A stretch of DNA of 61,667 bases, the filler included, from Basidiobolus ranarum (Eukaryota): assembly GCA_040143965.1 (NCBI GenBank). It is 23 parts of 23 records of this genome, joined end to end, with 100 filler letters (N's around TTAATTAATTAA, not from the genome) between each part and the next. Parts side by side here need not be neighbours in the genome. Positions count along the whole stretch, not along the records: positions 8,082 to 10,672 come from JASJQH010003167.1; 22 more parts are not named here. The stretch is one strand, 5' to 3'. The notes beneath the pieces were generated by a model that was not told the DNA's origin, did not search any database, and saw only the letters and a list, made by a program, of their open reading frames with translations. Every line of letters starts with the position of its first letter. The first letter of the stretch is position 1. Below are positions 251 to 42,912 of this stretch, piece by piece. Both the position numbers and the translations under genes were made by a program.

Positions 251-1561
251 CTAAAATTTAAGGGTCTTTGGTTTTTCCCAGGAAAATTCCTCACGGCCAA
301 AATGGCCATAACAGGCAGTTTTACGATAAATGGGTTTCCAAAGATCAAGCTCCTTAACGATGACTCCTGGTCTTAGGTCAAAATTGTCTTTGATAATTTT
401 TAGAAGGTCTTCGTTGGACTTGGTTGAAGTTCCATAAGTGTCTACAAATACTGAAAGGGGTTCAGCGACACCGATAGCATAGGAAAGCTGGACAAGGCAA
501 CGACGAGCTAATTTCGCTGCGACTAAAGACTTTGCAATCCAACGTGCAGTATATGCGGCAGATCGATCTACCTTCGACCAATCTTTTCCGGAAAAAGCAC
601 CTCCACCATGAGCACCCCAGCCGCCGTATGTGTCCACAATGATTTTCCGTCCCGTTAGACCAGCATCACCTTGAGGACCTCCGATAATAAATTTACCCGA
701 AGGATTCAAATGATAGACAGTTTTTTCGTCCATGAATTTCGCAGGTATTACCTCTTGAATAACACATTCTTGTAATTTTTTTCTAATAGTCTCGTTATCT
801 ACATCAGGTGAATGTTGAGTAGAAATAACAACGGTGTCAACACGAAGAGGAATCATGGCGCCATTATCATTCTTGTATTCAACCGTTACTTGTGTCTTGG
901 TATCTGGACGTAACCATGGTAAAGTTCCATTCCTACGTAATTCACTTAATTTCATGTTAAGTTGATGAGATAACATGATTGTAAGTGGCATTAGTTCCTT
1001 GGTTTCGTCAGTTGCGTAACCGAACATAATTCCTTGATCACCAGCGCCAATATCTTCTATGTTCTCACTAATTTGAACTAATCCTTGAGCAATATCAGGG
1101 GATTGTTGTTCCACTGCAACTAGAACGTTGCAAGTCTTATAGTCAAATCCTAGGGTCATCATATTTCAGTGAGGTGCTTTGGCAAATATATTTCTACAGT
1201 TAGGAATAGAATGAAAAATACCTAGTTCAGAGTTGGTGTAGCCGATATCATGTACCGTCTCTCGAATGATAGCTTGAAAATCCAAGTTGGCTTTGGTAGT
1301 GATCTCTCCCAGTACCATAATCATACCAGTCTTGCTGGCGGTCTCACAAGCAACTTTAGCAAATGGTTCCTGTGCAAGACAGGCATCAAGAATTGCGTCA
1401 GAAATCTGGTCACATATTTTATCTAAATTGAGAAAAGTTCGTTGAACAGGTCATTATGTCAGACAATGAAGATGGAAGGTTTGCTTTGAAAAAGTTTACA
1501 TACCTGGATGGCCTTCACCGACAGATTCCGAAGTGAAAAGAAAAGTATCTTGAGTTGACAT
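251..1561 (-). CDS. SAM2: S-adenosylmethionine synthetase, complete, 3 exons (1561-1504, 1422-1222, 1149-251), 385 aa
   Basis: Spliced translation begins [35 protein letters not shown] and contains [40 protein letters not shown] and YGHFGR. Two GT-AG introns (1503-1423, 1221-1150) keep frame (58+201+899=1158 nt). TAG stop. The ORF-track start at 1162 is intronic. Confidence 0.98.
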
Positions 1562-2695: not shown

Positions 2696-4020
2696 TCAAA
2701 GCAGCCTTTCTGAATTGAAATCTAGCAGACTAGATCTATATGGAGAAACCCAATGAATTTGTTAACTCAAAACACCCTGATATGGTCTGTAAACTGCAAA
2801 TATTGCCAAATGGACTCAAACAAGCACCCAGGGCTTGGAATAACAAAACAAATACTTAATTGAATCACTAGAATTCCAAAGATTCAAAGAAGATCACTGT
2901 ATTTACATCAGAACAGCTAGAAATAGGATGCTGATGTTGCAACTATATGACAATGACTTGATCATAGCCACAAATGATCTAGAAGAACTTAATCAGACAC
3001 AAGCAGCTTATCAAGTCAATTTAGCTGACGAAATTTTGAAGGCTATAGTGATGCAGACTGGGGAAGAACCCTTGATGATAGAAGATCTGCAACTCACAAA
3101 ACTGAAGTAAAAAATTTTCTGGTAATTGAGAGAAACTCTAGATCAAGTTCTGCAATACTCTTGCACTGCTGATGCCCAAAAATTTGAAGGCTTCAGTGAT
3201 GCAGACTGGGAGGAAACTTTGATGATAGAAGATTAACAACTGCATACACTATTCTCTAAGGTGATGGCGACATCCCTTGGAATAGTAAGAATCAACCAGC
3301 CTTAGCACTTTCCACTATGGAAGCAGAGCATATGGCTGCCTCTGCTGCTACAGAAGAAACTATGTGGCTCAGGGATTTATTTACAGCCTTAGCATACATG
3401 CAAAAAATGTGTATCACTTTATTCAATGATAATCAAAGTTGTACTACATTAGCCAAAAATTCTGCATTTTGTGCTATGACAAAACATATAGTTATTAGGC
3501 ATCATTTTAGTATAGAAGCAATAGAGAATGATATAATTGAATTTGTCTATTGCCCTACTGAAGAAATGATTGCTGACATCTTGACAAAACCCTTAGGTAT
3601 AGCACAATTTGAATTATTAAGAAATAAGTTAGATTTATAAGAAATACAAAATAATTAGTTGAATAGGGATGTTGAAATTAGGAAAATAGCCACTCATTAT
3701 GTTGTGATTAGTTTATTCATATTTTGATTATTTAGTACTCAATTTGGTCATTCAAAAATGTGTGATTATTGCTCTAATTAATACAAATATCAATCAGACC
3801 CCTTTTACCAATTTTCACTATTTTCTTGAATCTTCTGCAAATCATCTCAAATTTTCACTTATGCTTAACAAGCATGTTTGTGGTGATCAAAGTATTCCAA
3901 TAGTCCAGTTTCATAGTAAACTCTAAATAGGACATATTCAATTTGATAAAACCTAAGTGTCTAATTTACAAATCCAAATCTCGTCCAAAACATTTACAAA
4001 TCCCCTATACACTTTTATCA
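2696..4020 (+). mobile_element. Decayed Ty1/copia element: RT-RNase H, PPT and 3' LTR (family A, 3670-4020)
   Basis: AFLN, GLKQAPRAWN, degenerate YVDD (LYDNDLII), GFSDADW, DNQSC, TKHI, MIADILTKPL; purine tract before an LTR starting TGTTGAAATTAG and ending CA; many stops and frameshifts. Confidence 0.93.
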
Positions 4021-5105: not shown

Positions 5106-5389
5106 ATAGACTTGTTCCATTTTATTGAGCCAGATCAGGCCAGCTAAAAAGTGTGCCAGCACAAATTGGCATGATTGGGCACTATCTGGCACAATGTTAT
5201 TTACCATTTTGGAAACAGTTTATTTTACTTATGTGGTATGTTTAAGAAAAGTACTATTAGACATTATTGCCCATTCAAAAGATAATGAANNNNNNNNNNN
5301 NNNNNNNNNNNNNNNNNNNNNNNNNNNNNNNNNTTAATTAATTAANNNNNNNNNNNNNNNNNNNNNNNNNNNNNNNNNNNNNNNNNNNN

Positions 5390-8081: not shown

Positions 8082-9295
8082 AAATCAATCTAAATATATT
8101 GCAGACTTTGTCAGACATTACAGGATGGAGAATTGCAAGCCAGTAGCAACTCCCATGGATCCAGGTGTGAAACTAGTCCAAAAATCCCATCAAAAAAGAT
8201 GAAAATCAGCTAAATATGGCTCAAAATATATCTTTTGAAAGCCCTGAGTTTCCATATCAATCTATGGTAGGTAGTTTGATCTATACTATGACTGGAACCT
8301 GACCAGATATCTCTCTTGCTGTAGGAGTAGTCAGCCAACAAGTGAAAAATCCAGGATCTGAGCATTATGATGCAGTTAAGCAGATGTTCAGATATTTGAA
8401 GGGGACAATTAATCTGGGATTAAAATGCACATATTCTTATGAGAATAAGTATCTAATTGGGTTTAGTGATGCAGATTGGGGACATGATATTGAGGGCAGA
8501 AGATCTATCACTGGATATACCTTTCTATATAGTGAAGAAGTCATATCTTGGAATAGCAAGAAACAACCCACCTTATCACTTTAAACAACTGAAGCAGAGT
8601 ACAAAAGAGCATCACATACAACAAAGGAGGCTATGTGGCTAAGAAAACTGCTCAAAGACTTGGGCATGTTTTGAACTTCAACCACCATAATCTTCAAGGA
8701 TAATCAAAGTTGTATATCTTTGGTTAAAAATCCCAAATTTCATACTAGAAGTAGGCACATTGACATTCAACATCACTTTCTTATGGAAGCTATTGATAAT
8801 AAGCACATCCAACTATAGTACCATCCAACTGCGGACATGATTGCAAACATCCTTACCAAACCATTACCCAAGCCAAAATTTGAAAAATGAAGATTACAGT
8901 TAGGATCAAGATATATGAATATTTAGTTGAGTGGGAGTGTTGAAGTTTATTGTCTTTAAACATATTTGTTATCTCTATCTGTATACACCTAACTATTTCA
9001 TATATTACATAAGAGTTAGTCAACACTACCTAGTCAAATATCACTTAGCTAAAAATCAGAACATAAATTATATATATATGTGAATAGTGTGAGAATGAGC
9101 AATTCCATATTGGATATTTCAAACTTATCCAAATTGCAACAGAAATAGCTCATTTTACTCCCACAGTGTTAGTTTCTAGTATTTCCACCAAAATATACAA
9201 ATGCTTGATTTCTGGACAATAAACAATTATCTCACAAAGCTAAATGCAACTCCACTTTTCTAAAGTTCCTCCAAACAGCCCATATTTTCCCAATA
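8082..9295 (+). mobile_element. Copia RT C-terminus and RNase H, PPT (8924-8937), family B LTR (8938-9295), then PBS
   Basis: CKPVATPM, YQSMVGSLIY, GT*PDI, GFSDADWG, ISWNSKKQ, HIDIQHHF, ILTKPLP; PPT TAGTTGAGTGGGAG; LTR matches 42265-42641. Confidence 0.93.
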
Positions 9296-9627
9296 GATTA
9301 TGAGCCCAGTCAGTGCTAAATCCAGAAATCCTGCTTGAGGGGGAATGTTGAAAGTCTGGTGACTTGTCGTACAGGCAATAATTCCCAAAGAGGAGAATAT
9401 GGAGTATGGTGACTGCATCTGAACACAAATTTGAAGGCAAATCAGTTGCTTGTAAATCCAAAATGCCAAAGTACCATACATTGACAGACTAGGTTAAGGT
9501 TCCCTAGCAATATAGGCATAGCATATAAGGACTGGTAGCTCAGTGGTTAGAGCACCTTACTAGAGTGAAGGAGGTCTCAGGTTCAAATCCTGGCCAGACC
9601 ATTAATTCTCCCTAAATAATTTCAACA
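9296..9627 (+). mobile_element. TRIM-like unit: PBS, tiny internal region, PPT, and a 282-bp LTR (9346-9627) containing a tRNA-like sequence
   Basis: PBS GATTATGAGCCC (9296-9307); PPT TTGAGGGGGAA directly before TGTTGAAA (9346); ends TTTCAACA (9627), a perfect 8-bp terminal inverted repeat; 3' junction interrupts a repeat also seen, reversed, at ~24029-24081. Confidence 0.7.
9529..9601 (+). tRNA. tRNA-like sequence (pseudo-tRNA or Pol III cassette); nominal anticodon AGA, identity indeterminate
   Basis: 73 nt; acceptor GGACTGG/CCAGACC (one mismatch), D stem GCTC/GAGC, anticodon stem CCTT/AAGG plus A.G mismatch, 5-nt variable loop, T stem TCAGG/CCTGG with TTCAAAT loop. A box TAGCTCAGTGG 9536-9546; B box GGTTCAAATCC 9580-9590. 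The short variable loop is incompatible with a true tRNA-Ser. Confidence 0.75.
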
Positions 9628-9749
9628 TAGCCTCTATATTTAGTACAGGAATATCCCTATATCTATATAACAAGTATGTCACAGTAACATCACATATCCA
9701 ATACATCCCATTACTCAAACTCCTGAATAACTCAAACATTTGATTTAAT

Positions 9750-10672
9750 TATCTACTATATAAGGCACCATATACTGTTAAGAATAGAGTAGCTAAAACA
9801 TGCTATCATAAGTTGCTTCCAATATTCAAAGTTCACCCCCCCCCATTGCAGCATCCTCCAACAGTGGCACAGCCATGAAATGTTTTATTGCTGGATTTTC
9901 CTGATATTCTTTTACTAAGCTTACAGCTGTAGCAACAGCAGGCCTATATGTACATTCAGACATACTAAATATTTTTAAAGCAACTCTATATATCTCTCTT
10001 GTTTAATACAAAATGTTCTAGTATTGATATCTTGCCATATGTTCATTTCAAGACAATATGATAGTGATCAAAGATCTTCTATTTCAAATTTGTTCCAGGT
10101 GTATATCTTCATCAATTTCCCACTCAGAAATTATGCTTACTATTAATTTGTTCAATCAGCATACCTTGGTGAGTAATAGAAGCCAAGATTACTTTTATTT
10201 AGTTAAATATAGCACCAGGAGAAAATGTTCCAACATAGTCAAGGCCATGTTTCTGAGCATAGCCATTGACTACTAATCAGGCTTTATGCTGGTTGCTAGA
10301 TCTATCAGAGTTAACTTTCAATTTTAGCACCCTTCTGTTACAAATGGGTTTTCTTCTAATAGGCATGTCCACAAGGATCCATTTGTTCTTCTTGATTAGG
10401 GAGTGATTTCAATCATCAGTGGCTATTCTTCATTCTGTCACTTCATCATATTTCCAAGCATGTCTCAAATTTTCTGGTTCAGCAAAGGCTATATATGCAA
10501 ATGTATTCCATCCTTTTTCTAAGTCAAGTTTATAGATTTTATGCTCTGATTTGAGTTCTCCATAGTCCTAGGTAGAAAGATCAGGTGTTATACTTATAAA
10601 ACAATTTTTATATTTTTCATTGGCAGAGATAGCATGCTGATTTGCAGAAGCTGATCCTAAGTTACCAATTTC
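9750..10672 (-). mobile_element. Heavily decayed copia fragments (RT N-terminus; gag scrap)
   Basis: Minus strand reads AYIAFAEPENLRHA..WILVDMPIRRKPI, typical of the start of copia RT; many stops. Confidence 0.65.
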
Positions 10673-12218: not shown

Positions 12219-12573
12219 CTGTTATCTCTATCTTTATACACCTAACTACTTCATATATCACATATAAGTTAGTTAACATTACTTAATCAAATATCACCTA
12301 ACCACAAATTAGAACATATATTATATGTATATATATGTGAATAATGTGAAAATTAGCAATTCCATATTGGAAATTTCAAACTTGCCCAAATTGCCCCAAC
12401 AATAGCTCATTTTACTCCCACAGGTATTCTGAACACTACCCCAGTATTAGTTTTCAGTATTTCCACCAAAATGTATAAATGCTTCACTTCTGGACAATAA
12501 ATAATTATTTCACAAAGCTATTCACAATTGCACTTTTCTAAAGTTCCTCCAAACAGCCCATATTATCTCAACA
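12219..12573 (+). mobile_element. 5'-truncated solo family B copia LTR inside the EnSpm element
   Basis: Matches 8938-9295 and 42265-42641; ends CAACA; EnSpm-associated sequence resumes at AGGGTGGTATTTTA as at ~35241. Confidence 0.85.
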
Positions 12574-13362: not shown

Positions 13363-13462
13363 NNNNNNNNNNNNNNNNNNNNNNNNNNNNNNNNNNNNNN
13401 NNNNNNTTAATTAATTAANNNNNNNNNNNNNNNNNNNNNNNNNNNNNNNNNNNNNNNNNNNN

Positions 13463-16051
13463 TTTCAAGCTTTTCTCCCTTTATCAGTACGTAAAGTGTT
13501 TTGGGTGACCACTCTAATGCTTTTAAAATTCCCAGCAATTCGTATCCAGGGGTGATGTCGATTGCTAATAAAATATTCGTAAAATATTCGATATCTGTAG
13601 CCAGTTGCTTGGAGCCAAATAAAGTGACTTTTTCTAAGCCAAGGATAAAGTCACATAACTTGGCTTGTGTGGCTTGTGCTACTGATGCAATCCATCGATG
13701 CGTGATTTCTATACGTCGATTGGTTTCAAATACTTGGTCAGAGGAGTTCATGGAAGTCAGTCGTGGACGAGCTCCAGATACAGAGGAGCTGCGACGGGTT
13801 CGTGTAGTATTCGAAGGATTTGATTGATCAGAGGACATAGTGGAATACGAACGTGCACGGTTTAATCCTGGAGGGGTAGGTCGTCCTCCAACAGTGGAAT
13901 AGCTACGATGCCGAGATTGGGGGCTTTCAGAGGAGGGCTTAGGTGAAGATACTGTGGTAGTTGGCTCTGGTGATGTTGGCAATTCCTCATTGATGAGGAA
14001 TTGACTATAGGGTAGGGTATCGAGCGAAAAGCCAAAGGATTCATGTCCAGTATACGTTTCCAGTTGTTGCGGCAAAGTGAGTAAATATTCGCCAACACGC
14101 GTGATGTATGTGGATGGAGAGAGACTGAACTTTGGAATTTGTAATTTAAGTGGTGAAGTAGTTCCAGCTTCGTTAGAGATCCAAGCTGGATTCTTATCAA
14201 AGTCAATTAACTGCTTCTTAATGGTAGCGAAAAGCATATTGAACAAATATTTTTGGCACTGTCTGGTGAAGCTTTTAGATGCCAAGCGAGGGTTTTCAGC
14301 CAAAGTAAACGCACCATTTTGAAGCTTAATTAGCAAACTACGCAACTCCAAGCTATTGAGTGTGGACTCCTTAAGTAGTGACAGTGATGCAACCGTAATA
14401 TCTTGAGCCGGGATAGAGAAGCTAGTTGGACTATCCTCATCATACATAGTAATATCCACACTCACCTTTCCGAACTCAAGTTCCTTGCTCAAAAAATTAT
14501 CAGTATAAAGTATTGCTGTTTTGGCGCTCTTCTCATATTCTTCAATTTGAATACTAATCCTTTTACAGGCGCTAAGCAATTCCAGTCCAAGTTGAAACAG
14601 TTGCCAGTTTACTTGTTGATATTCATCTACTTCCGCCTCTTCTTCCTCGGATATTTGAGATAACATTACTGCATTTCCATCGCTGAACATTGACGAAAGC
14701 TGGTCACAATGTGTCTCTAATTCGCCTATTAACTTGCAAATATATTGGGAGACTGACTTAGCCATCCCAACACTAGCGAATCCATGAGTAAAGTAAAGAC
14801 ACCGAGAGAGAGCAGCGTCAATAACATTGAAGGTCTTAGGAATTACATCCAACATGTAGCGTACAATCTTATCTCCAGTTTCCTTAGTCGAGTCTACCTT
14901 GAGAATTTTTTCAAGGGTCGCGTCAAGATAGGCACTCTCATACTCTGGATACTTGCACTGATGGCTTAAAAATCCTTCAAATATAGGGTCTCCCCAATGA
15001 TTAAAGTCGATTACTTTATCAGTTTGGTTCTTTTCATATAATTGGTAAAGTAAATTCTCGACAGTACTACCAAATTTCTCGGATGCCTTAAAGGCTCTTA
15101 TGAGCTCGGGTAATGACTCGACTATTGGCTGCTGCTCGGCCAACAAATCAATTTGTGATGATAATGAAGGTGTTAAGGAGTTGAAAACCTTTCGAATGAG
15201 AGAATATATAACAGATCCGGGATTAGGAAAGATCTCCACACACCAGGTCTTTTCCTGATTTATCATGATAAAAGCTTCTTCGTAAAACTTTTGAAGGAAA
15301 TCGCTGAAATTCGAAGTAGAGATTTTCCCAGGTTGCCCTCCATCGCGTACATTGCTGCCATCGGTTTTCTCAGAGAAGGACCCCTCCCACAAGGTGATCA
15401 GGGAAGTCTGCCGACTACAGAAGTACATTTCCATGAAGACGTCTTCTTTATGAATCCTATTGAAGATATTGTATAAACTCTTGCAGTTTTCAACATCTCT
15501 GCCATTAACTGCCGTATTCAGCAAAGGAATCAACGCATGCTCTAGCTGATTTCTCAGATTGTCTAGGAGGGTTAGCCTTCCTTCATATTCTGGAGAATTT
15601 TGGAACATGGCCAAACTTTTCTGAGCCTCTTCTAATCGAGTTGTGACATCAAGGTATGCTTTCTTGGCCATTAAGGAGCTTACTTCAGCACCAAGATTGT
15701 TCCAAGTCTCGGCTTCACGTAAGACATTTTTGGAGGCCTCCATTCGTGATTTGATCAACTCAAGTTGCACTAAATCATACAAAGCACTGTCTTCTTTCTC
15801 AACGATGTTAACGACTCCTTTTTTTATCTCGGTGATTTTCCCCTTGGCCAAAAGTGCTTCTTGTTTTATAGTTTCCAAATCATACACAATTCTAGGCAAG
15901 CTTTTGGTAACGTTTTCGCAGGTGGCTTCAAGTCGCGTGGTGTATTAATTACATAGCAGGTGGAGCGTAGTAACTGGGCTTAATACGTTAGTCGGCGGAT
16001 CGTTTTCGTGCGGGGCTCCGCCGCGGCGTTTTTTGGAAATTAGGTCTGAAC
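13463..16051 (-). CDS. COG7: Conserved oligomeric Golgi complex subunit 7, long animal/plant type, partial at both ends
   Basis: PRIVYDLETIKQEA..IKSRME..LREAETW..SPEY..LRNQLE and PKFSLSPSTYITRVGEYLLTLPQQLE, QLATDIEYFTNIL match COG7 as I recall it; >800 codons without an intron; one in-frame TAA at 15945-15947. Confidence 0.9.
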
Positions 16052-21428: not shown

Positions 21429-21673
21429 NNNNNNNNNNNNNNNNNNNNNNNNNNNNNNNNNNNNNNNNNNNNTTAATTAATTAANNNNNNNNNNNNNNNN
21501 NNNNNNNNNNNNNNNNNNNNNNNNNNNNGTAATAAAGCTTTTCATTTCCAATTACAAAATCTTTGCACAGTTGCTGTGTCTGCCTGAGATCTGCCAATGT
21601 GAGTTGATACCTTAAGAATATATTAACAATGTGCAAGGTTTGGGGCTTCTAGCACATGTTTGAAGAATATTTA

Positions 21674-23846
21674 TGTTGAAATTAGCATTGCCCAAACATC
21701 TATAAAGTCATATATAGCTTAATATTAAGATATCTTATATCTCACTAAGATATTACCCATTATTCTCATGAGGATTTCACTTTGAAGATTTCTACCAAAT
21801 TAGAAGTTCTCAGATATATTGATTTTTTCAAACCTGTGCTAGAAGCTGCCAACCTTGCACACATACTCCTGGGACCTTCCTTAACATGTTCTACATGTTA
21901 GTTTGATTACATCTTGACAAAAGCACAAATGTCAATGTTCCACTCAATAAATCAAAAAGCAAAATCAATCTACTTCTCTGTTTCTTGAAACCACTTCCAA
22001 CAGGCTCCCAGATACCTTAACAGGTTGTGAGCCCCAAGCTTGCACTCACTGTAATGTCTACTTCTCAAATTTCTGGAATCTTTCCCTCTTCTGAAAAATT
22101 GGATGAAACCAATTATCAAGTTGGGAAAACAAAAATAAAAATGCTGCTGCAAGACAATGGACTTTGCAATACTGTTCTAGGAGAAGAAAACAATGCAAAA
22201 CTCTCTGAAACCAAAGCTTTACTCCAGGTTAAAGAAGAATAAATTGCCTTTAACACAACTTGTCTAAATGCTGAAGACAAATTGCTAATTCAAAGCTCAA
22301 GAGCCAAAACTGGCTAGAAGGTATGGAAAGCCTTGGAAGACACCTACCAAGTATGTCCAGCTTCCAACAAGATGCTTCTAAGATGACAATTCTTCAAGTT
22401 AAAGATGAAGCCAGGAGAAGACATTAAATCACTAATTAATAGTTTCACTAATTTAGTGGATGAAATGGAATGCATTGGAGTACCCACTACTGATTAGGAT
22501 ATCATAGTTACAGTACTGAATAGCCTGCCACACTAGTTTCAGAGCCTATTAATGGCCCAAGAATCAAGAACCGAAAATTTGACCTTAAGTTATATATTTG
22601 GCAAACTCTTGGATAAAGATATATACCAAGCAGGATCCAACCAAAATAATGAAGAAAATGCTTTAATAGGCTGTAGGAAACCTTCCTATAATGGTCATAA
22701 GCACTCTAAGAAGAAAAGTAACATATTCTGTGATTACTGCAAAAGAACTGACCATTCAAACAAAGATTACTTGAAAAGAATTTGCAAAAGAAGAGATACA
22801 TACTGAATCTGGAAATGTGTTTACAACAGATGATCACTTATTCATATCTGCTCTATCTATGACTACCAGCAAGGCTATTCAGATGTGGTATATTGATTTT
22901 GGAGCCTATAAAAATTTCACAAATGAAAGTATTGGCTTGTGGATTATGAAGAAATCCCAGTTAGAAAGGTTTTGTTCAGAGATGACTCTAAATTAAATTA
23001 GGTGCCATTGGAATGGGAACAGTTCAAGGCAATTTAACTGGTGCTTCTGAAGAGAAAGTATATACTTTGCAGGATATAATATATGTTTTAGATATTGTCT
23101 AGAATTTAAAATCTCTATGCAAGGTCACCTCAGAAGGGCTAAAAATCAATTTTGATATGTCCAGATGCATCATCACTGGTCACAATGGGAATTATTTAGC
23201 TTTAGGTGAAAAGGATCAGAACTTATACAACCTTACATATAATCCAAGAGGTTAATGTATAGATATAAGTTATTCCAATCAAGAAACTATTCACACATGG
23301 CATAAGAGATTTGACCATATTAGATTTGATTATTTGAGCAAAATGATCAAAAATCACATAATAGACTTATTCCATTGTGCCAGGATTTATTGGACCTTGG
23401 ATCAATGTATTGGAGTAAATGTGATTGAAATTGATCATGCCAGAGGGTGATGGCTATTGCCAAATTGTGCCGCATAAATTTTAGAATACTTTATCCAATA
23501 TGATATATACAGCACAATCTGGCACTATCACAGAGAACAAGTCCAATTTCTACAATATAAAATAACCCTGCAATCAAAATGGATATTTGTCAGGGTTGTA
23601 TAAATGGAGAACAGGCCAGGTAACCATTTAAAAGCTCTGGTTTCATCAAATCTGTCAAAATATAGGATCTAATTCATTTGAATTTGTGTGGACTTATCCA
23701 AATGTATCTATAGGTAGAAAAGGATATTTGAACACCCTTACTGACAATTATACAAGACAAACTTAAGTCTGCTTTATGGAAAGAAAAGAAGCTCTCTCCC
23801 TATCTTCATAGATTTTAAAACTCTTGAGGATACTGGATCTAAAACT
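21674..23846 (+). mobile_element. Copia family C 5' half: LTR (21674-22022), PBS (22023-22034), gag, zinc knuckle, protease, integrase
   Basis: EKLDETNY, VLNSLP, CDYCKRTDH knuckle, WYIDFG, WHKRFDH GAG-pre-integrase, LIHLNLCG integrase; stops throughout. Confidence 0.9.
23364..23543. mobile_element. Putative ~180-bp MITE-like insertion in the copia coding region
   Basis: Ends GACTTATTC / GAACAAGTC (inverted, one mismatch); internal GTGCC/GGCAC motifs; a related end GACTTGTTCC interrupts LTR A at 5109. No clear target-site duplication. Confidence 0.45.
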
Positions 23847-24116
23847 GTTGGAGGATCTTGACATAATGGGGGTAGACTTTGAGTATTAGAAGCAACTTAT
23901 GATAGTGTGTTTTAGTTAGTTTATTCTTGAGAGTATATGGTGGCTTATATAGTAGAAAAGTAAATCAATTGTTTGAGATATTCAGGACTTTGTGTAATAA
24001 GATATAATAGTTAAGTGGGGGTAATAAGACATACTTGTTATATAGATATAGAGATATTCCTATTTAGAATATAGGGGCTATAGATACATTGCTTTCTGTT
24101 TCTGATATATGTATCA
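23847..24116. repeat. Additional LTR-like repeat (family D), partial
   Basis: Starts TGTTGG, interrupts integrase; reverse complement of ~24029-24081 recurs at 9627-9680. Confidence 0.55.
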
Positions 24117-26904: not shown

Positions 26905-29150
26905 TTGTGGTTTGTCAGTAGTCTTTAGCACTTCGTAAACTCAACCTTAAACATTTTTCATAGCCATTGTTTCTTGGCACCGTACCCTTTCTCTCTTGTC
27001 AGTAGTCTTTAGCGCCTTGTAGATTACCCCTTTAGTGTTTCCCGTCATTATATTCTTTGTCATTTATCAGCAGACCTTAGCACTTAATAAACTCACTTTA
27101 ATTGTTTCTTATACCTGCTATTTCTTGACACCGTACCCTTTACCACTTGTCAGTTGTATTTGGCACTTGATAAAATGTGCTCTAAGTGTTTTCCATACCG
27201 GTCATTTCTTGGCACCATAACCTTCATCGCTTGTCAGTAGTATCTAGCACTGCTTGGACTTTCTTGCAAATGTTTCCCATACCCCTTGTTTATTATCACC
27301 ATACCTTTCGTCTTTTTTCAGTAGTCTTGAGGACTTCGTAAACTCTACATTAAGTGTTTCTCATACCCTTTGTCATTTCTCAGTAGTCTCTAGCACTGCG
27401 TGCATTTTCTTTTTAGTGTGTCCCATACCGCTCGTTAATTGGCAGAGTAATAATTTTGCGGTACTATTGTTTCCTCTACCCGTTGTTTCTTGACACCATA
27501 CCCTTTGACATTTAACAGTAGTCTTACGCACTTTGTAGACTGCTTGAAGTACACTCTTCTTTAAGTTTTTCTCACACCTGTCGTTGGTCATCACCGTACT
27601 CTTTGTCAGTAGTCTTTAGCGATTCTTTACAACTTCGTAGACTCATTCTCCTTTTAGTGTCCTCCCAAACGCAACGTTTTGTATGCCCATACAGTTTGTC
27701 ACATATCATCAGTGTATACCTTTTCGTAGACTTTGCTATCAGTGTTTCCCATAGTCTCTAGCACTTTATAAACTACCGGGTGTTTGTTATCACCGTACCC
27801 TTTGTCTTTTGTCAGCAGGCTTTAGGTCTTAGTAGACTTCGCTATCAGTGTTTCCCGTACCCGATATTTGCTATCACCATACCCTTCATCATTTGTCTTT
27901 ATAATTTAGCGCTTTGTAGACTTTTCTTAAAGTATTGCTCATACCCGTCGTTTGTCATAACCGTACGCTTTGTCATTTGTCAGCAGTCCTTAAGGCTCGT
28001 AAACTCTTTCACAAGCGTTTCCATTACCTGCCGTTGGTTTTCACCATACCCTTTGTCACTTGTCAGCAGTCTTTACACTTCGTAGAATCTTCTTTAAGTG
28101 TTTCCCATACCCTTCGTTTGTTGTCACCATACTCTTTGTCACTTATCGGTGGTTTTTAGCATTACATAAACTCTTTTTAAAGTGTTTTTCATACTCATTG
28201 TTTAATGTCAACAAACCCTTTGTCATTTGTCAGTGGTCTTTAGCTCTTCGTAGACTGTTCTTCAAATGTTTCACATCCCGCTCATTCCTCGTCACCATAC
28301 CCTTCATCATTTGTCAGTGGTCGTTAGCACTGTATAAACTTTTGTTTAAGTGTTTCCCATACCAGTGGTTTCTTGGTACCATATGCTTCGTCATCTGTCA
28401 GTAGTCTTTATCTACATACCTGATGTTTCTTGGCACCATTCTCTTTGGCAATTATCAGTGGTCTTTAGCTGCTCGTAGACTCGGCTTTAAGTGTTATCCA
28501 TACTTGTCATTTCTTGGCACCATACCCTTCATCGTTTGTCAGTAGCCTTCAGCACTGCCTAGACTCTCGTTTAAATGTTTTCCATACCAGTTGTTTGTTA
28601 TCACCATACCCTTCGTCATTTTCAGTACTCTTTAGCACTTCTTTACCACTTTATTTGCTTTCCTTTAAGTGTTTCCCATTACCATCGTTTGTGGCACTAT
28701 GCTCTTCATCATTTGTCAGTGGTCATTAGCACTTCATAAATTTTCGTTTCAGTGTTTCACATACCGCTCATTCCTTGGCACCATGCCTTTACCATAACTT
28801 TCATCGTTTCCAGGCAGTCTTTACCACTTCGAAGCCTCTCCTTTTAGTGTTTCCCATACCCGTCGTTTTTGGCACCCTACTCTTCATCATTTGTTAAGGG
28901 TCATTAGCACTTCGTAAACTCTCTATCAGTCTTTCACATACCCGCTGTTTGTTATCACCATACCCTTTGTCACTTGTCAACAGTCTTTCGACTTCGTAGA
29001 CTTTCCTTTAAGTGTTTCCTACACTCGACGTTTACGATCACCCCACTGTTCGTCACTCGTCAGTCACCTTTAGCACTTCATAGACCCTCCTCTACGTGTT
29101 TCCCATACCCGTGGTTTGTGGTCACGTTACTCTTTGTCTTTGTTTCAATA
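26905..29150. repeat. Diverged 84-bp tandem satellite array
   Basis: Approximate consensus TTAAGTGTTTCCCATACCCGTCGTTTGTTATCACCATACCCTTTGTCATTTGTCAGTAGTCTTTAGCACTTCGTAGACTCTCCT; many internal deletions. Confidence 0.95.
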
Positions 29151-39985: not shown

Positions 39986-40330
39986 TTATTCTATAGAAGA
40001 CATGATTGTTAAAGTTAGCATTGCCTAAACATTGATATAATCATATATAGCTTAATATTTTGTTATGGTATAATTCACTATGATATCATCAGTTATTCTT
40101 AATGGGAATTTACTTGGAATATTTTCATCAGCCAAGACCTTCTCAGATATGTACATTTTTCAAACTTGTACTAGAAGGCCTGATGGGGAAAATATGGGCT
40201 GTGTGGAGGAACTTTAGAAAAGTGGAGTTGNNNNNNNNNNNNNNNNNNNNNNNNNNNNNNNNNNNNNNNNNNNNTTAATTAATTAANNNNNNNNNNNNNN
40301 NNNNNNNNNNNNNNNNNNNNNNNNNNNNNN

Positions 40331-42200
40331 GATATTTGACTAAATAATGTTGACTAACTAATATGTGATATATGAAATAGTTAGGTGTATAAAGATAGGG
40401 ATAACATATATGATAAAGACAATAAACTTCAACAAAAAATACTTTAACATGAGTTTTGGCTGTTTTTACACAGATTACCCTATAGCATTCTTACAGGATT
40501 CCTGCAATATTCTTTCTAGAAAATTTATTATCACCAAAGTAATTCCACCTCCAGAATCCTCTTCTTCGATACTGTGTGCCCCCAATGAGAAATGCAAGCA
40601 TAAGTACCAGAGAAAATTCGCAATTACTTCACTCAATCTAATGTTACTACCTCAATTCTATCATAATATGGTAGGAAAATCCATTTACAGCTCACTCCAT
40701 TTATCACATAGCCAGAATAAAATGTCTTATCAGTTAAAAATCTTTGAAAAATCTTCTCACAAATTTCACAATCACCATTGAGCATGCAGTAAATTTCTTT
40801 GGTTTTGTTTCTCATGTTTAGACAAAGCTCAGCTACTCTTTTATGGAACATTGTGCCACTTTATCAAGAGATATGTCTTCCTTGTTAAAATGTATTTGTA
40901 GCTTGTACAGAGTCCACCATTCAATCAGCATACTTCTGCTGAGGCTCTTTAGAAAAGAAGACACAATCAAACATCCATATGCCATTGGGGATTTAATTTG
41001 CACTGCAAGTACTCCTCATTTGCTGTGCTGGGTACATATTTCTCAAGTTTTGGCAAAAAAGCAGAACAGGCTTGTTCTGCATGCTGACTTATTTGGAAGT
41101 GAAATATGTTATAGTAGAGGGCTGGATTGAAGTGTTTGTTAAATTAGAGAAATGGATATGTTTACTAAATGAATTAGTGAGTTGATGGTTAACAACTATA
41201 CTCTTGTAGGGAGCAAACAAACTAGGGTGTGGAATATGGCTGGAAGGTTCCAGGAACATGCATGCAAAGCTTACTGCTTCAAGCTGAAGTTTGAAAAATT
41301 TATACATTGAAAAACTTCCAAATCTGCAAGAATATCATCTGCATATTCTAATTGAGAGTAGTGGGTAATATCCTAGTGAAATATAGGATGACTAAGTACT
41401 AGACTATATATGAATATATAGGTGTTTAGGCAATGCTAATTATCATACTCTCCCTCAACTAAATAGTCCTATGAACTAATCCTAAGGAAGGTTGGAATCT
41501 CTAAAATATCTGCCCAACTAATGTTTAGTCAACATATCAGCAATCATGTTTTTGGTACCATAATAAGTTCATTCAATAAAATTATTCTGTTTAGTTTCCC
41601 TAATAAAATAACGCCAAACAACTATATGGTTTCTTCCAGTATCAGAGGTGGAATTTAGAGCTAAGTTGATGCAACATTGACTGTCTTGAAAAATTGTAGT
41701 AAGTGAATTTTGAAGATAGCCTAAAGCTGTTAAGAGCTTTCTCACTGTATTGCTTGTTTTCTTGCTTCACAAGGAGCCATCTATACTACATCTGTTCTTG
41801 ACAGTGCAACATTGGGCTGTTTTTTCAAGTTCCAAGAAATAGCTCCATTACTGCAAAGAAATAAGTATCCTGCTATAGATCTCCTGCCTTCAAAATCTCC
41901 TACCCAATTGGCATCTGAGTAACCTATCATAATAAAGTTTGATCCAGAATACATGCTTTTTAGTCACAGATTAACAGCACCTTTAAAATATCTCAAAATC
42001 TGCTTAACTGCTATGATTTGATTTTTTCCTTAATTTTGAAGATGCTAGCATATAACTCCAACAGAATATGGAGTATTTGGCAATGTCCAGATCATGATAT
42101 GCATAATACTAGCAGCTATAGATTAATAAGGAAACATCTGTTTCTCATTTGAATCAACAAAGTCTGAGTTGAACTATTTGTTTAAGTTTATCATCTTTAT
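40331..42200 (-). mobile_element. Nested copia relics: RT/RNase H, PPT (41448-41461), family C LTR (~41107-41447), integrase region, partial family B LTR
   Basis: Minus strand GYSDANWVG, FQDSQCCI, MIADMLTK; DSGGGI integrase-like motif near 40550. Confidence 0.82.
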
Positions 42201-42250
42201 CATATCTTTTATCTCTAAGATTGAAGTTAGGATTGAGATATATGACTATG

Positions 42251-42912
42251 TAGTTGAGTAGGAGTGTTGAAGTTTATTGTGTTTATCATATTTGTTATCT
42301 GTATCTTTATACATCTAACTATTTCATATATCACATATGAGTTTGTTAACATCACTTAGTCAAATATCACTTGACTGAAAATTGTAACATATATTATATA
42401 TATATGTGAATAATGTGAGAATTAGTAATTCCATATTGAAAATTTCAAACTCATCCAAATTGCCCCAAAGATAGCTCATTTTACTCCCATAGATGTTCTG
42501 AATGCAATCCCTGTGTAAGTTTTCAGTATTTCTACCAAAATGTATAAATGCTTTATTTTGGACAATAAATAATTATCTCACAAAGCTATTCACAACTCCA
42601 CTTTTCTAAAGTTTCTCCAAACAGCCCATATTTTACCAATAGGTTATGAGCCCCATGTTCTAACCTTTACAGCATGACAGAAGCTACTACTACCACTTTT
42701 ATTAACTCAAGTGTTGAAAAGCTTGATGGAGAAAATTACAATTTCTGGAAGTTTAAGATGCAAATCATGCTGTAAGACAGGGAGCTTTGGGATGTAGTCT
42801 ATGGAGATGAAAAGGAACCTGCTTACCCTTTTTTATTGGAAGCTTACAAGAAAAGAGACAAGAAGGCCTTTAATGTCATTTATCAAAGTTTGAAAGATTC
42901 ACAACATGTGAA
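42251..42912 (+). mobile_element. PPT, family B LTR (42265-42641), PBS (42642-42653), gag start
   Basis: TAGTTGAGTAGGAG before TGTTGAAG; GGTTATGAGCCC after the LTR; VEKLDGENYNFWKFKMQ gag. Confidence 0.92.

What the first reader, a model, noticed from the sequence alone, without database searches (positions are those of the whole stretch)
9296..9627. LTR carrying a tRNA-like Pol III cassette: candidate tRNA analogue of Cassandra TRIMs
Seen: a PBS (9296), about 30 nt, a PPT (TTGAGGGGGAA), then a 282-bp segment with perfect TGTTGAAA/TTTCAACA ends. A 73-nt cloverleaf with intact A and B boxes but a damaged anticodon arm lies inside it, 26 nt from the 3' end. No oligo-T terminator follows the cloverleaf, and there is no TTTT anywhere in 9296-9627 on this strand, although neighbouring LTRs have several. 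Known: plant Cassandra TRIMs carry 5S-derived Pol III promoters in their LTRs, and Pol III terminates at T runs. Inference: a non-autonomous miniature LTR element transcribed by Pol III from a captured tRNA and mobilised by the copia families sharing its PBS. Only one copy is visible and its upstream LTR is family B, so it would be a chimera formed at the shared PBS.
Basis: partly seen in the sequence, partly recalled or inferred. Interest (0 to 1): 0.85.

Follow-up and report, generated by a model that had tools for sequence, protein, structure and literature searches.

The report
tRNA-like sequence inside a fungal LTR
A real tRNA-derived sequence sits near the end of a small copia-type terminal repeat in what looks like a Basidiobolus (fungal) contig; it resembles the published "Helenus" elements, but a single rearranged copy cannot prove it belongs to them.

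Summary
A 73-nt tRNA-like cloverleaf lies at 9529-9601 (Rfam tRNA 55.2 bits). A PBS lies at 9296-9308, a PPT at 9335-9345, and a 282-bp TGTTGAAA...TTTCAACA unit at 9346-9627.

- The window is 23 unrelated contigs of about 2.6 kb joined by N44-TTAATTAATTAA-N44 linkers. The "neighbouring LTRs" are therefore other loci.
- The organism looks like a fungus, not a plant. A sister contig encodes a protein 100% identical to one named Basidiobolus ranarum.
- The "tRNA analogue of Cassandra" is already published as Helenus/TRIMp3 (Kojima 2024). It occurs in fungi, depends on copia, and mostly uses this kind of PBS.

Best reading (about 0.45): this is a partial, rearranged copy of a Helenus-type TRIM. 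Its right LTR ends at 9627, exactly where an unrelated LTR fragment (9628-9865) begins.

Main rival (about 0.25): an ordinary LTR spans 9346-9865 and took a one-off 103-bp tRNA-like insertion flanked by the 6-bp repeat CATAGC.

The left LTR belongs to another family. Only one copy is visible and no terminator follows the tRNA. The lack of TTTT is not significant, and Pol III use is untested. No genome or reads were available.

Verdict: at most a new member of a known kind; modest interest.

The parts
8083..8937 (+). 3' end of a copia pol (RNase H C-terminus) followed by the family-B PPT TTGAGTGGGAG (8927-8937)
   Evidence: tblastn with copia polyprotein P0012: 8083-8184 and 8237-8941 match aa 1048-1329 of 1331. 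PPT read.
8938..9295 (+). Family-B copia LTR (TGTTGAAG...CCAATA), flanked by a PPT on its left and a PBS on its right
   Evidence: 83% identical to 42257-42646 and 81% to 12220-12571. Partial reverse copies lie at 40434-40331 and 40230-40183. No similarity to the 282-bp unit (z about 0).
9296..9308 (+). Primer-binding site GATTATGAGCCCA. Family consensus is GGTTATGAGCCCC, which is complementary to the anticodon stem-loop of initiator tRNA-Met (tRNA sequence recalled)
   Evidence: 5 of 5 occurrences of the motif (2 or fewer mismatches) directly follow an LTR end. Anticodon-loop iMet priming is the dominant type in fungal Helenus and occurs in fungal copia (PMC10886601).
9309..9334 (+). 26-nt spacer, loosely like the copia leader that follows the PBS in other families
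   Evidence: Read by eye against leaders printed. Not statistically tested.
9335..9345 (+). Polypurine tract TTGAGGGGGAA abutting the LTR start
   Evidence: The motif GGGNNTGTTGAA (1 or fewer mismatches) gives 9 hits. Those at 3665, 8933, 9341, 42260 and 49739(-) sit at PPT/LTR-start junctions.
9346..9627 (+). 282-bp candidate LTR with 8-bp inverted ends TGTTGAAA/TTTCAACA. Alternatively, the 5' part of a 518-520-bp LTR running to 9863-9865
   Evidence: Single copy in the window. Its 3' end coincides with the start of the X repeat. TTTCAACA occurs at 1.5e-4 per position per strand (18 occurrences).
9529..9601 (+). tRNA-derived cloverleaf: anticodon AGA, short variable loop, A and B boxes intact, two mismatched stem pairs, no terminator
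   Evidence: ARAGORN. Rfam RF00005 at 55.2 bits. First run of 4 or more T downstream is at 9883.
9517..9631 (+). Direct repeat CATAGC (9517-9522 and 9626-9631) bracketing a 103-bp piece (9523-9625) that contains the tRNA-like sequence. This is the possible insertion of the rival model
   Evidence: Sequence. The 17 nt ending at 9522 match the sequence upstream of the second X copy at 13 of 17 positions. Expected chance hits are 0.012-0.05 per 282 anchors ungapped. The match is not significant when gaps are allowed or in a free local search.
9628..9865 (+). 'X': the 3' part of another copia-type LTR, with TATA-like CTATATAAGG and end ...CCTCCAACA at 9863
   Evidence: 81% identical to rc 24081-23844. 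The outer flanks differ between the two copies: antisense copia pol at about aa 1140 here, copia integrase at about aa 500 in contig 21529-24116. The outer end is therefore a true element terminus.
9866..10672 (-). Older antisense copia pol (start of RT through the pre-RNase H region, with a deletion), interrupted at 9865/9866
   Evidence: tblastn: 10402-10115 matches aa 824-919 and 10091-9984 matches aa 1019-1054 of P0012. Weak co-linear RVT_2 hits, E 0.0061 and 0.089. 9942-9859 resembles 8303-8386 (E 0.095).

Best explanation
The 282-bp unit 9346-9627 is the right-hand LTR of a small non-autonomous copia-type element (a TRIM). Its whole internal domain is PBS + 26 nt + PPT, and its LTR carries a tRNA-derived sequence 26 nt from its end. 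That makes it a partial copy of a Helenus-type (TRIMp3) element in a fungal genome, apparently Basidiobolus.

This copy landed in the LTR of another copia (X, 9628-9865). That LTR in turn sits inside a third, antisense copia.

The copy is not a clean transposition unit. Its left LTR is family B and is itself preceded by family-B pol and a PPT. The most economical origin (inferred) is a join at the shared PBS. This could be reverse-transcriptase template switching between co-packaged TRIM and family-B RNAs, which would give a copia-LTR_B-TRIM concatemer, or later recombination.

Shown: the tRNA-like sequence, PBS, PPT, LTR start, the coincidence of the LTR end with a repeat boundary, and the nesting.

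Inferred: that the family is multi-copy, that both LTRs of a proper copy carry the tRNA, and that the A/B boxes drive Pol III transcription. A TATA-like ATATAAGG lies just upstream of the tRNA and an AAATAAT lies near the LTR end, so Pol II use is equally possible.
For: - tRNA-like sequence.
- PBS: 5 of 5 motif hits follow LTR ends.
- The PPT/LTR-start junction is like those of the other families.
- The TRIM-like 50-nt internal domain keeps exactly the two cis elements.
- The 8-bp inverted repeat ends at 9627, and the independent X1/X2 homology starts at 9627/9628. TTTCAACA occurs at only 1.5e-4 per position per strand, so a chance coincidence within 1 nt is about 5e-4.
- By eye, both ends of the 282-bp unit resemble the family-B LTR ends (TGTTGAA-GT and TTTC..AACA, printout), as expected for a partner integrase.
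- The fungal setting fits the published family. Fungal Helenus elements are copia-dependent and mostly primed at the iMet anticodon loop. Their tRNA-like parts are often called Thr-AGT or Ser-AGA by tRNAscan (PMC10886601: Results, Discussion and Table 2 read).
Against: - Only one copy is seen in 59 kb.
- No DNA match in 5 scans of public collections that hold little or no fungal DNA: 2 viral, 2 metagenome and 1 prokaryote-genome scan with tRNA-part or X-part patterns.
- The left LTR is a different family (z about 0), so the defining pair of like LTRs is absent and no TSD can be read.
- No T run follows the tRNA before 9883, unlike Cassandra's terminator.
- A 6-bp direct repeat CATAGC brackets a 103-bp tRNA-containing piece. 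The 17 nt before it match the sequence upstream of the tRNA-less second X copy at 13 of 17 positions. That is what a one-off insertion into a 411-bp LTR would leave.
- The PPT-adjacent start at 9346 and the proven element terminus at 9863-9865 would also make a tidy single LTR.
- The contig is 2.6 kb from a fragmented assembly, so mis-joins cannot be excluded.
Confidence: 0.45

Rival explanations
1. One-off insertion. The real LTR runs from 9346 to 9863-9865 (about 411 bp before the event). It is PPT-adjacent on the left and abuts the antisense host copia on the right. A 103-bp tRNA-derived retrocopy (a SINE-like unit or Pol III transcript copy, 9523-9625) inserted into it with a 6-bp target duplication CATAGC. 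The TTTCAACA at 9620-9627 is chance. The tRNA piece has nothing to do with the LTR's mobility.
For: - A PPT|TG start and a proven element terminus lie 518-520 bp apart with no leftover pieces.
- The second X copy lacks the tRNA. Its 17 upstream nt match 9506-9522 at 13 of 17 positions, right before the repeat. Expected chance hits are 0.05 per 282 anchors, or 0.005 for the 30 anchors nearest the tRNA.
- The piece starts 6 nt upstream of the cloverleaf, where Pol III transcripts usually start (established knowledge).
Against: - It needs TTTCAACA, the exact inverse of the LTR start, to end within 1 nt of the homology break by chance, about 5e-4.
- The upstream match is not significant with gapped or free local alignment.
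- Only 35 nt of the second copy exist before its contig ends.
- The piece has no A- or T-rich tail.
- A 6-bp flanking repeat is common by chance (my estimate, about 0.3).
- No other copy of the piece is found in the window.
Confidence: 0.25
2. Captured fragment of a Helenus-type element. The piece 9523-9627 runs from a Pol III-like start to an LTR-type ...CA end. That is the R-U5 (strong-stop) part of a tRNA-bearing LTR. It was captured into an ordinary LTR (9346-9865), for example during break repair. A tRNA-bearing LTR family would then exist in the genome, but this locus would only be a scrap of it.
For: It is the only model that makes both coincidences real: the LTR-type terminus at the homology break and the flanking repeat with upstream match to the second X copy. 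Capture of retrotransposon cDNA at chromosome breaks is known from yeast (recalled, not looked up here).
Against: It is a rare type of event and there is no direct evidence for it. It rests on two soft statistics from one locus.
Confidence: 0.08
3. Assembly artefact or chance mosaic. The 2.6-kb contig is a mis-join of collapsed repeats. PPT-LTR-PBS paths are typical of collapsed LTR elements. The apparent TRIM would then be repeat debris with a decayed tRNA pseudogene.
For: - The window is made of 23 short unplaced contigs sorted by length.
- Two contig ends fall inside family-B LTRs.
- Both complete family-B LTRs are flanked by a PPT and a PBS at once.
- Many truncated copia pieces are present.
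Against: - No long shared sequence is seen at the joins that an assembler could have used.
- Keeping exactly PBS + 26 nt + PPT is very unlikely for a random join (inference).
- Family copies are only 75-88% alike, so collapse between copies is not expected.
Confidence: 0.12
4. A working tRNA gene that happens to lie in repeat debris.
For: High tRNA score and intact A and B boxes.
Against: - A Ser anticodon (AGA) sits on a body with a 5-nt variable loop.
- Two stem pairs are mismatched.
- There is no run of 4 or more T for 281 nt downstream.
Confidence: 0.01

Closest known systems
Helenus (TRIMp3), Kojima 2024, Biology 13:119 (PMC10886601)
   Same: - A tRNA-derived sequence with conserved A and B boxes inside a short LTR.
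- A tiny internal part made of a PBS and a PPT.
- A fungal host and a copia-type partner.
- A PBS of the initiator-tRNA anticodon-loop type.
- The tRNA part is not a credible working tRNA. Many fungal Helenus are called Ser-AGA or Thr-AGT.
   Different: - Only one LTR with the tRNA is seen, and the other LTR is a different family.
- No TSD or copy number is available.
- The host would be Basidiobolus. The paper lists fungal Helenus only from Pucciniales and a few Agaricomycetes (Table 1 and Results 3.2). A text search for Zoopagomycota and Mucoromycota gave 0 occurrences.
- The Helenus sequences themselves are in supplements and Repbase, which I could not see, so no sequence comparison was made.
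Cassandra TRIMs of plants (5S-derived Pol III cassette in the LTR)
   Same: The idea is the same: a small-RNA gene promoter inside the LTRs of a miniature non-autonomous LTR element.
   Different: - Cassandra carries 5S, has a conserved Pol III terminator giving a short terminal redundancy (PMC10886601 introduction), and is a plant element.
- Here the sequence is tRNA-like, has no terminator, and the host is fungal.
- No 5S match was found in the window.
tRNA-derived SINEs (SINE2)
   Same: A tRNA-like head with A and B boxes. A possible short flanking duplication (CATAGC). The piece starts a few nt upstream of the cloverleaf.
   Different: No A- or T-rich or simple-repeat tail, only 103 bp, no second copy in the window, and the 3' end looks like an LTR terminus.
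Ordinary TRIMs and internally deleted copia elements
   Same: An LTR-PBS-short spacer-PPT-LTR layout, with copia-like termini, PBS and PPT.
   Different: The two LTRs are unrelated, and the left one is also the 3' LTR of a coding copia. The right one carries a tRNA-like sequence.

Membership tests
Helenus / TRIMp3 | tRNA-derived sequence with A and B boxes inside the LTR | tested here: met
   Rfam tRNA 55.2 bits at 9529-9601, inside the PPT-adjacent LTR. Boxes read from the sequence.
Helenus / TRIMp3 | Two like LTRs flanking a short non-coding internal part (whole element under about 1-1.3 kb) | tested here: not met
   The left LTR (8938-9295) is family B and shows no similarity to 9346-9627 (z about 0). 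It is preceded by family-B pol. This copy is therefore not an intact member; a proper copy may exist elsewhere.
Helenus / TRIMp3 | PBS after the 5' LTR and PPT before the 3' LTR | tested here: met
   PBS 9296-9308 and PPT 9335-9345.
Helenus / TRIMp3 | 5-bp target-site duplications (fungal families) | not testable with these tools
   The left end of the element is not in the 2591-bp contig. The right flank would be TAGCC (9628-9632).
Helenus / TRIMp3 | Multi-copy family with the tRNA part at the same place in all LTRs | tested here: inconclusive
   One copy in 59 kb of the assembly. There were 0 hits in viral, metagenome and prokaryote-genome scans, which are poor proxies. No genome or reads are held.
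Cassandra | 5S rRNA-derived sequence with a Pol III terminator in the LTR | tested here: not met
   No 5S match in the window at E up to 5. No TTTT between 9288 and 9882.
tRNA-derived SINE | tRNA-like head, then a body and an A/T-rich or simple-repeat tail, with flanking TSDs and dispersed copies | tested here: inconclusive
   Head present. No tail (sequence). A 6-bp flanking repeat CATAGC is of weak significance. No other copy in the window.
Functional tRNA gene | Consistent isotype, intact stems, downstream oligo-T terminator | tested here: not met
   AGA anticodon with a short variable loop and two mismatched pairs. First run of 4 or more T is at 9883.

The most novel reading that the evidence does not exclude
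Basidiobolus, an early-diverging fungus far from the rusts and mushrooms where Helenus is known, harbours its own tRNA-bearing TRIM family. This locus would preserve a hybrid concatemer (copia pol - LTR_B - PBS - 26 nt - PPT - tRNA-LTR) made by template switching at the shared PBS. That would be a physical trace of the TRIM RNA being co-packaged and reverse-transcribed together with its autonomous copia partner.
Probability: 0.25. Interest if true: 0.5.

Novelty: new member of a known kind. Interest (0 to 1): 0.3.

Why it matters
If confirmed genome-wide, it would extend Helenus/TRIMp3 elements to a new fungal phylum. It could also name the autonomous partner of such an element (family-B copia), which is unknown for Cassandra and only inferred for Helenus. 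It would also warn annotators that tRNA predictions in this fungus may be inflated by LTR-borne pseudo-tRNAs, as in rust fungi. As it stands, it is a single damaged copy of a type already in print.

Tried and rejected
- Whole genome: none is held. Earlier findings of the scan were empty or irrelevant.
- Exact-pattern scans with two tRNA-part patterns and one conserved X-LTR pattern gave 0 hits each: viral contigs, metagenome contigs, prokaryote genome contigs.
- Full-text search for a 21-nt stretch of the tRNA-like sequence gave 0 papers.
- Idea that TGTTGAAA at 9346 is the start of gag, as in the family-B copy at 42712: rejected. The PPT/LTR junction match is much better, and no gag-like frame follows.
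- Idea that X and the 282-bp unit are antisense RNase H coding sequence: rejected. Translated comparison of all six frames of 9296-10010 against the window gave only the X2 copy and the expected pol motif at 9859-9942. Nothing matched over 9296-9858, and tblastn with full copia proteins found nothing there.
- Reverse orientation of the LTR: rejected, because no PBS follows on the minus strand (sequence).
- Family-B LTR as a diverged partner of the 282-bp unit: rejected (z about 0).
- LTR_B or family A against the 9346-9865 LTR: no significant similarity.
- X2 as a complete 238-bp insertion with the host integrase resuming after it: no TSD, and only 3 of 11 residues fit. No other copy was available to test it.
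I used stop-free fragments instead.
- The search on Basidiobolus transposons returned only general papers (listing only).

Full report
**What the window is.** The 61,667-base window is not one locus. It holds 22 identical linkers (44 N, TTAATTAATTAA, 44 N) that separate 23 pieces of 2595 down to 2577 bp, sorted by falling length. It is therefore a chain of short unplaced contigs. The finding lies in one 2591-bp contig, 8082-10672, and everything else in the window is another locus.

One sister contig carries an intronless COG7 reading frame (Pfam). Its product is 100% identical to an NCBI protein named from Basidiobolus ranarum, on a contig of 2589 bp. The last contig holds a fungal C/D-box snoRNA. 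The assembly is therefore most likely fungal, not plant.

**The observation.** It is confirmed.
- ARAGORN finds one tRNA in the window, at 9529-9601 with anticodon AGA.
- Rfam's tRNA model scores 55.2 bits against a gathering score of 29, over the full model, with two non-standard stem pairs.
- The A and B boxes read TAGCTCAGTGG and GGTTCAAATCC.
- The variable loop is short, so a Ser anticodon does not fit the body. The sequence is tRNA-derived, not a credible tRNA gene.
- The first run of four or more T downstream is at 9883.
- The PBS at 9296-9308 matches GGTTATGAGCCCC at 11 of 13 positions. That motif occurs 5 times in the window at 2 or fewer mismatches, and 5 of 5 come directly after an LTR end. 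From recall, it is complementary to the anticodon stem-loop of initiator tRNA-Met.
- The PPT/LTR-start junction TTGAGGGGGAA|TGTTGAAA closely resembles those of the other copia families.
- The 282-bp unit has perfect 8-bp inverted ends and no second copy in the window.
- The absence of TTTT is real but unremarkable: 36% of shuffles and 710 of 5192 equal-sized windows share it. 11% of positions lie in TTTT-free stretches at least 590 nt long.

**Anatomy of the contig.** From left to right:
- 8083-8937 (+): the end of a copia pol, aa 1048-1329 of reference P0012, with its PPT.
- 8938-9295: a complete family-B LTR.
- 9296-9345: PBS, 26 nt, PPT.
- 9346-9627: the 282-bp unit with the tRNA-like sequence.
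- 9628-9865: a piece 'X' that is 81% identical to rc 24081-23844 in another contig. X ends ...CCTCCAACA.
- 9866-10672 (-): an antisense, older copia pol.

The two X copies abut copia pol at quite different places: about aa 1140 here and about aa 500 in the other contig. The outer end of X is therefore a true element terminus. No coding similarity exists over 9296-9858 on either strand.

**Two readings of the right-hand LTR.**

(a) The LTR is the 282-bp unit. It ended up inside another LTR (X).
- For this: its inverted-repeat end at 9627 coincides to the base with the independent X1/X2 homology break. TTTCAACA occurs at only 1.5e-4 per position per strand (18 occurrences), so a chance coincidence within one base is about 5e-4.
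- Its two ends also resemble the family-B LTR ends (printout, by eye).

(b) The LTR runs from 9346 to 9863-9865. A 103-bp tRNA-containing piece (9523-9625) is a later insertion with a 6-bp duplication, CATAGC.
- For this: the PPT-adjacent start and the proven terminus make a tidy single LTR.
- The other X copy lacks the tRNA.
- Its 17 nt before X match 9506-9522 at 13 of 17 positions, right before the repeat.
- That match is expected 0.012-0.05 times by chance among 282 ungapped anchors. It is not significant with gaps or in a free local search. Only 35 nt of the second copy exist before its contig ends.

I weigh (a) above (b) because its coincidence is the rarer one. The question is open.

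A third model makes both signals real: an R-U5 fragment of a tRNA-bearing LTR was captured into an ordinary LTR. It is possible but exotic.

**The left side.** The family-B LTR is flanked by its own PPT on the left and a PBS on the right. The same holds for the other complete family-B LTR at 42257-42640, which continues into gag. It is unrelated to the 282-bp unit. The two LTRs therefore cannot come from one round of reverse transcription, and this copy is not an intact TRIM.

Keeping exactly PBS + 26 nt + PPT between them is very unlikely for a random deletion. That points to a TRIM-type internal domain (inference). A join at the shared PBS would give this order of parts. It could arise by template switching between co-packaged RNAs or by recombination. 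A mis-assembly of repeats cannot be excluded in contigs of this kind.

**Comparison with what is known.** A full-text search led to Kojima 2024 (PMC10886601). I read the abstract, Methods 2.1, all Results, the Discussion, and the figure legends and tables. That paper defines Helenus as TRIMs with a tRNA-derived sequence in their LTRs. They are found in fungi (Pucciniales and a few Agaricomycetes), animals and Selaginella. Together with Cassandra and Ajax they are termed TRIMp3.

Fungal Helenus elements make 5-bp TSDs and are thought to be copia-mobilised. They mostly have a PBS complementary to the iMet anticodon loop. Their tRNA-like parts are often called Thr-AGT or Ser-AGA by tRNAscan. They are proposed to arise by SINE insertion into a TRIM LTR.

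A 2026 sugar-beet paper cites the same concept (passages only).

Membership cannot be granted. The pair of like LTRs is not met at this copy, and TSDs and copy number are untestable here. The Helenus sequences are in supplements I could not see.

**Mechanism.** If it is a Helenus-type LTR, the A and B boxes could start Pol III transcripts a few nt upstream of 9529. No terminator lies in the LTR, so a Cassandra-like short terminal redundancy is not evident. A TATA-like ATATAAGG sits directly upstream of the cloverleaf and an AAATAAT near the LTR end, so Pol II use is equally possible. Nothing here shows transcription.

**Verdict.** At best this is a new member of a known kind in a new fungal lineage. 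At worst it is a one-off tRNA-like insertion in LTR debris. Interest 0.3.

Noticed in passing
whole window; linkers at 2596-2695, 5290-5389, ... 58991-59090: The window is 23 contigs of 2595-2577 bp in falling order of length, joined by N44-TTAATTAATTAA-N44 linkers. Any inference from 'neighbours' across a linker is invalid.
   Followed up: yes
13410-15944 (-): An uninterrupted 845-codon frame encodes a COG7 (Golgi complex subunit 7) homologue (Pfam). It is 100% identical over 83% of its length to a 718-aa protein named from Basidiobolus ranarum. A 67-69% identical paralogue or orthologue exists in B. ranarum and B. meristosporus. The open frame is longer than the deposited protein.
   Followed up: partly
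254-1165 (-): S-adenosylmethionine synthetase, central and C-terminal domains (Pfam E 4e-49 and 3e-70).
   Followed up: no
61558-61665 (+): Match to the fungal C/D-box snoRNA 107 family at 44.3 bits, just above its gathering score of 44.
   Followed up: no
26905-29141 and 51593-53485: Two separate contigs carry long arrays of an 84-bp repeat (28 codons) with copies 60-80% alike and strong strand asymmetry. This may be a repeat-rich coding gene on the minus strand.
   Followed up: no
42217-42912: A second family-B LTR is also flanked by a PPT with 49 nt of pol end on its left, and by a PBS and gag on its right. An antisense copia pol lies just upstream (41524-42155). Middle-LTR or concatemer arrangements, or collapsed assembly paths, seem common for this family.
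   Followed up: partly
40331-40434 and 40183-40230: Two contig ends fall inside family-B LTR copies, as expected if the assembly broke at repeats.
   Followed up: no
6381(-), 22023, 34281, 42642: All copia families in the window share the PBS GGTTATGAGCCCC. From recall this is complementary to the initiator tRNA anticodon stem-loop, that is, Ty5/Drosophila-copia-style internal priming.
   Followed up: partly
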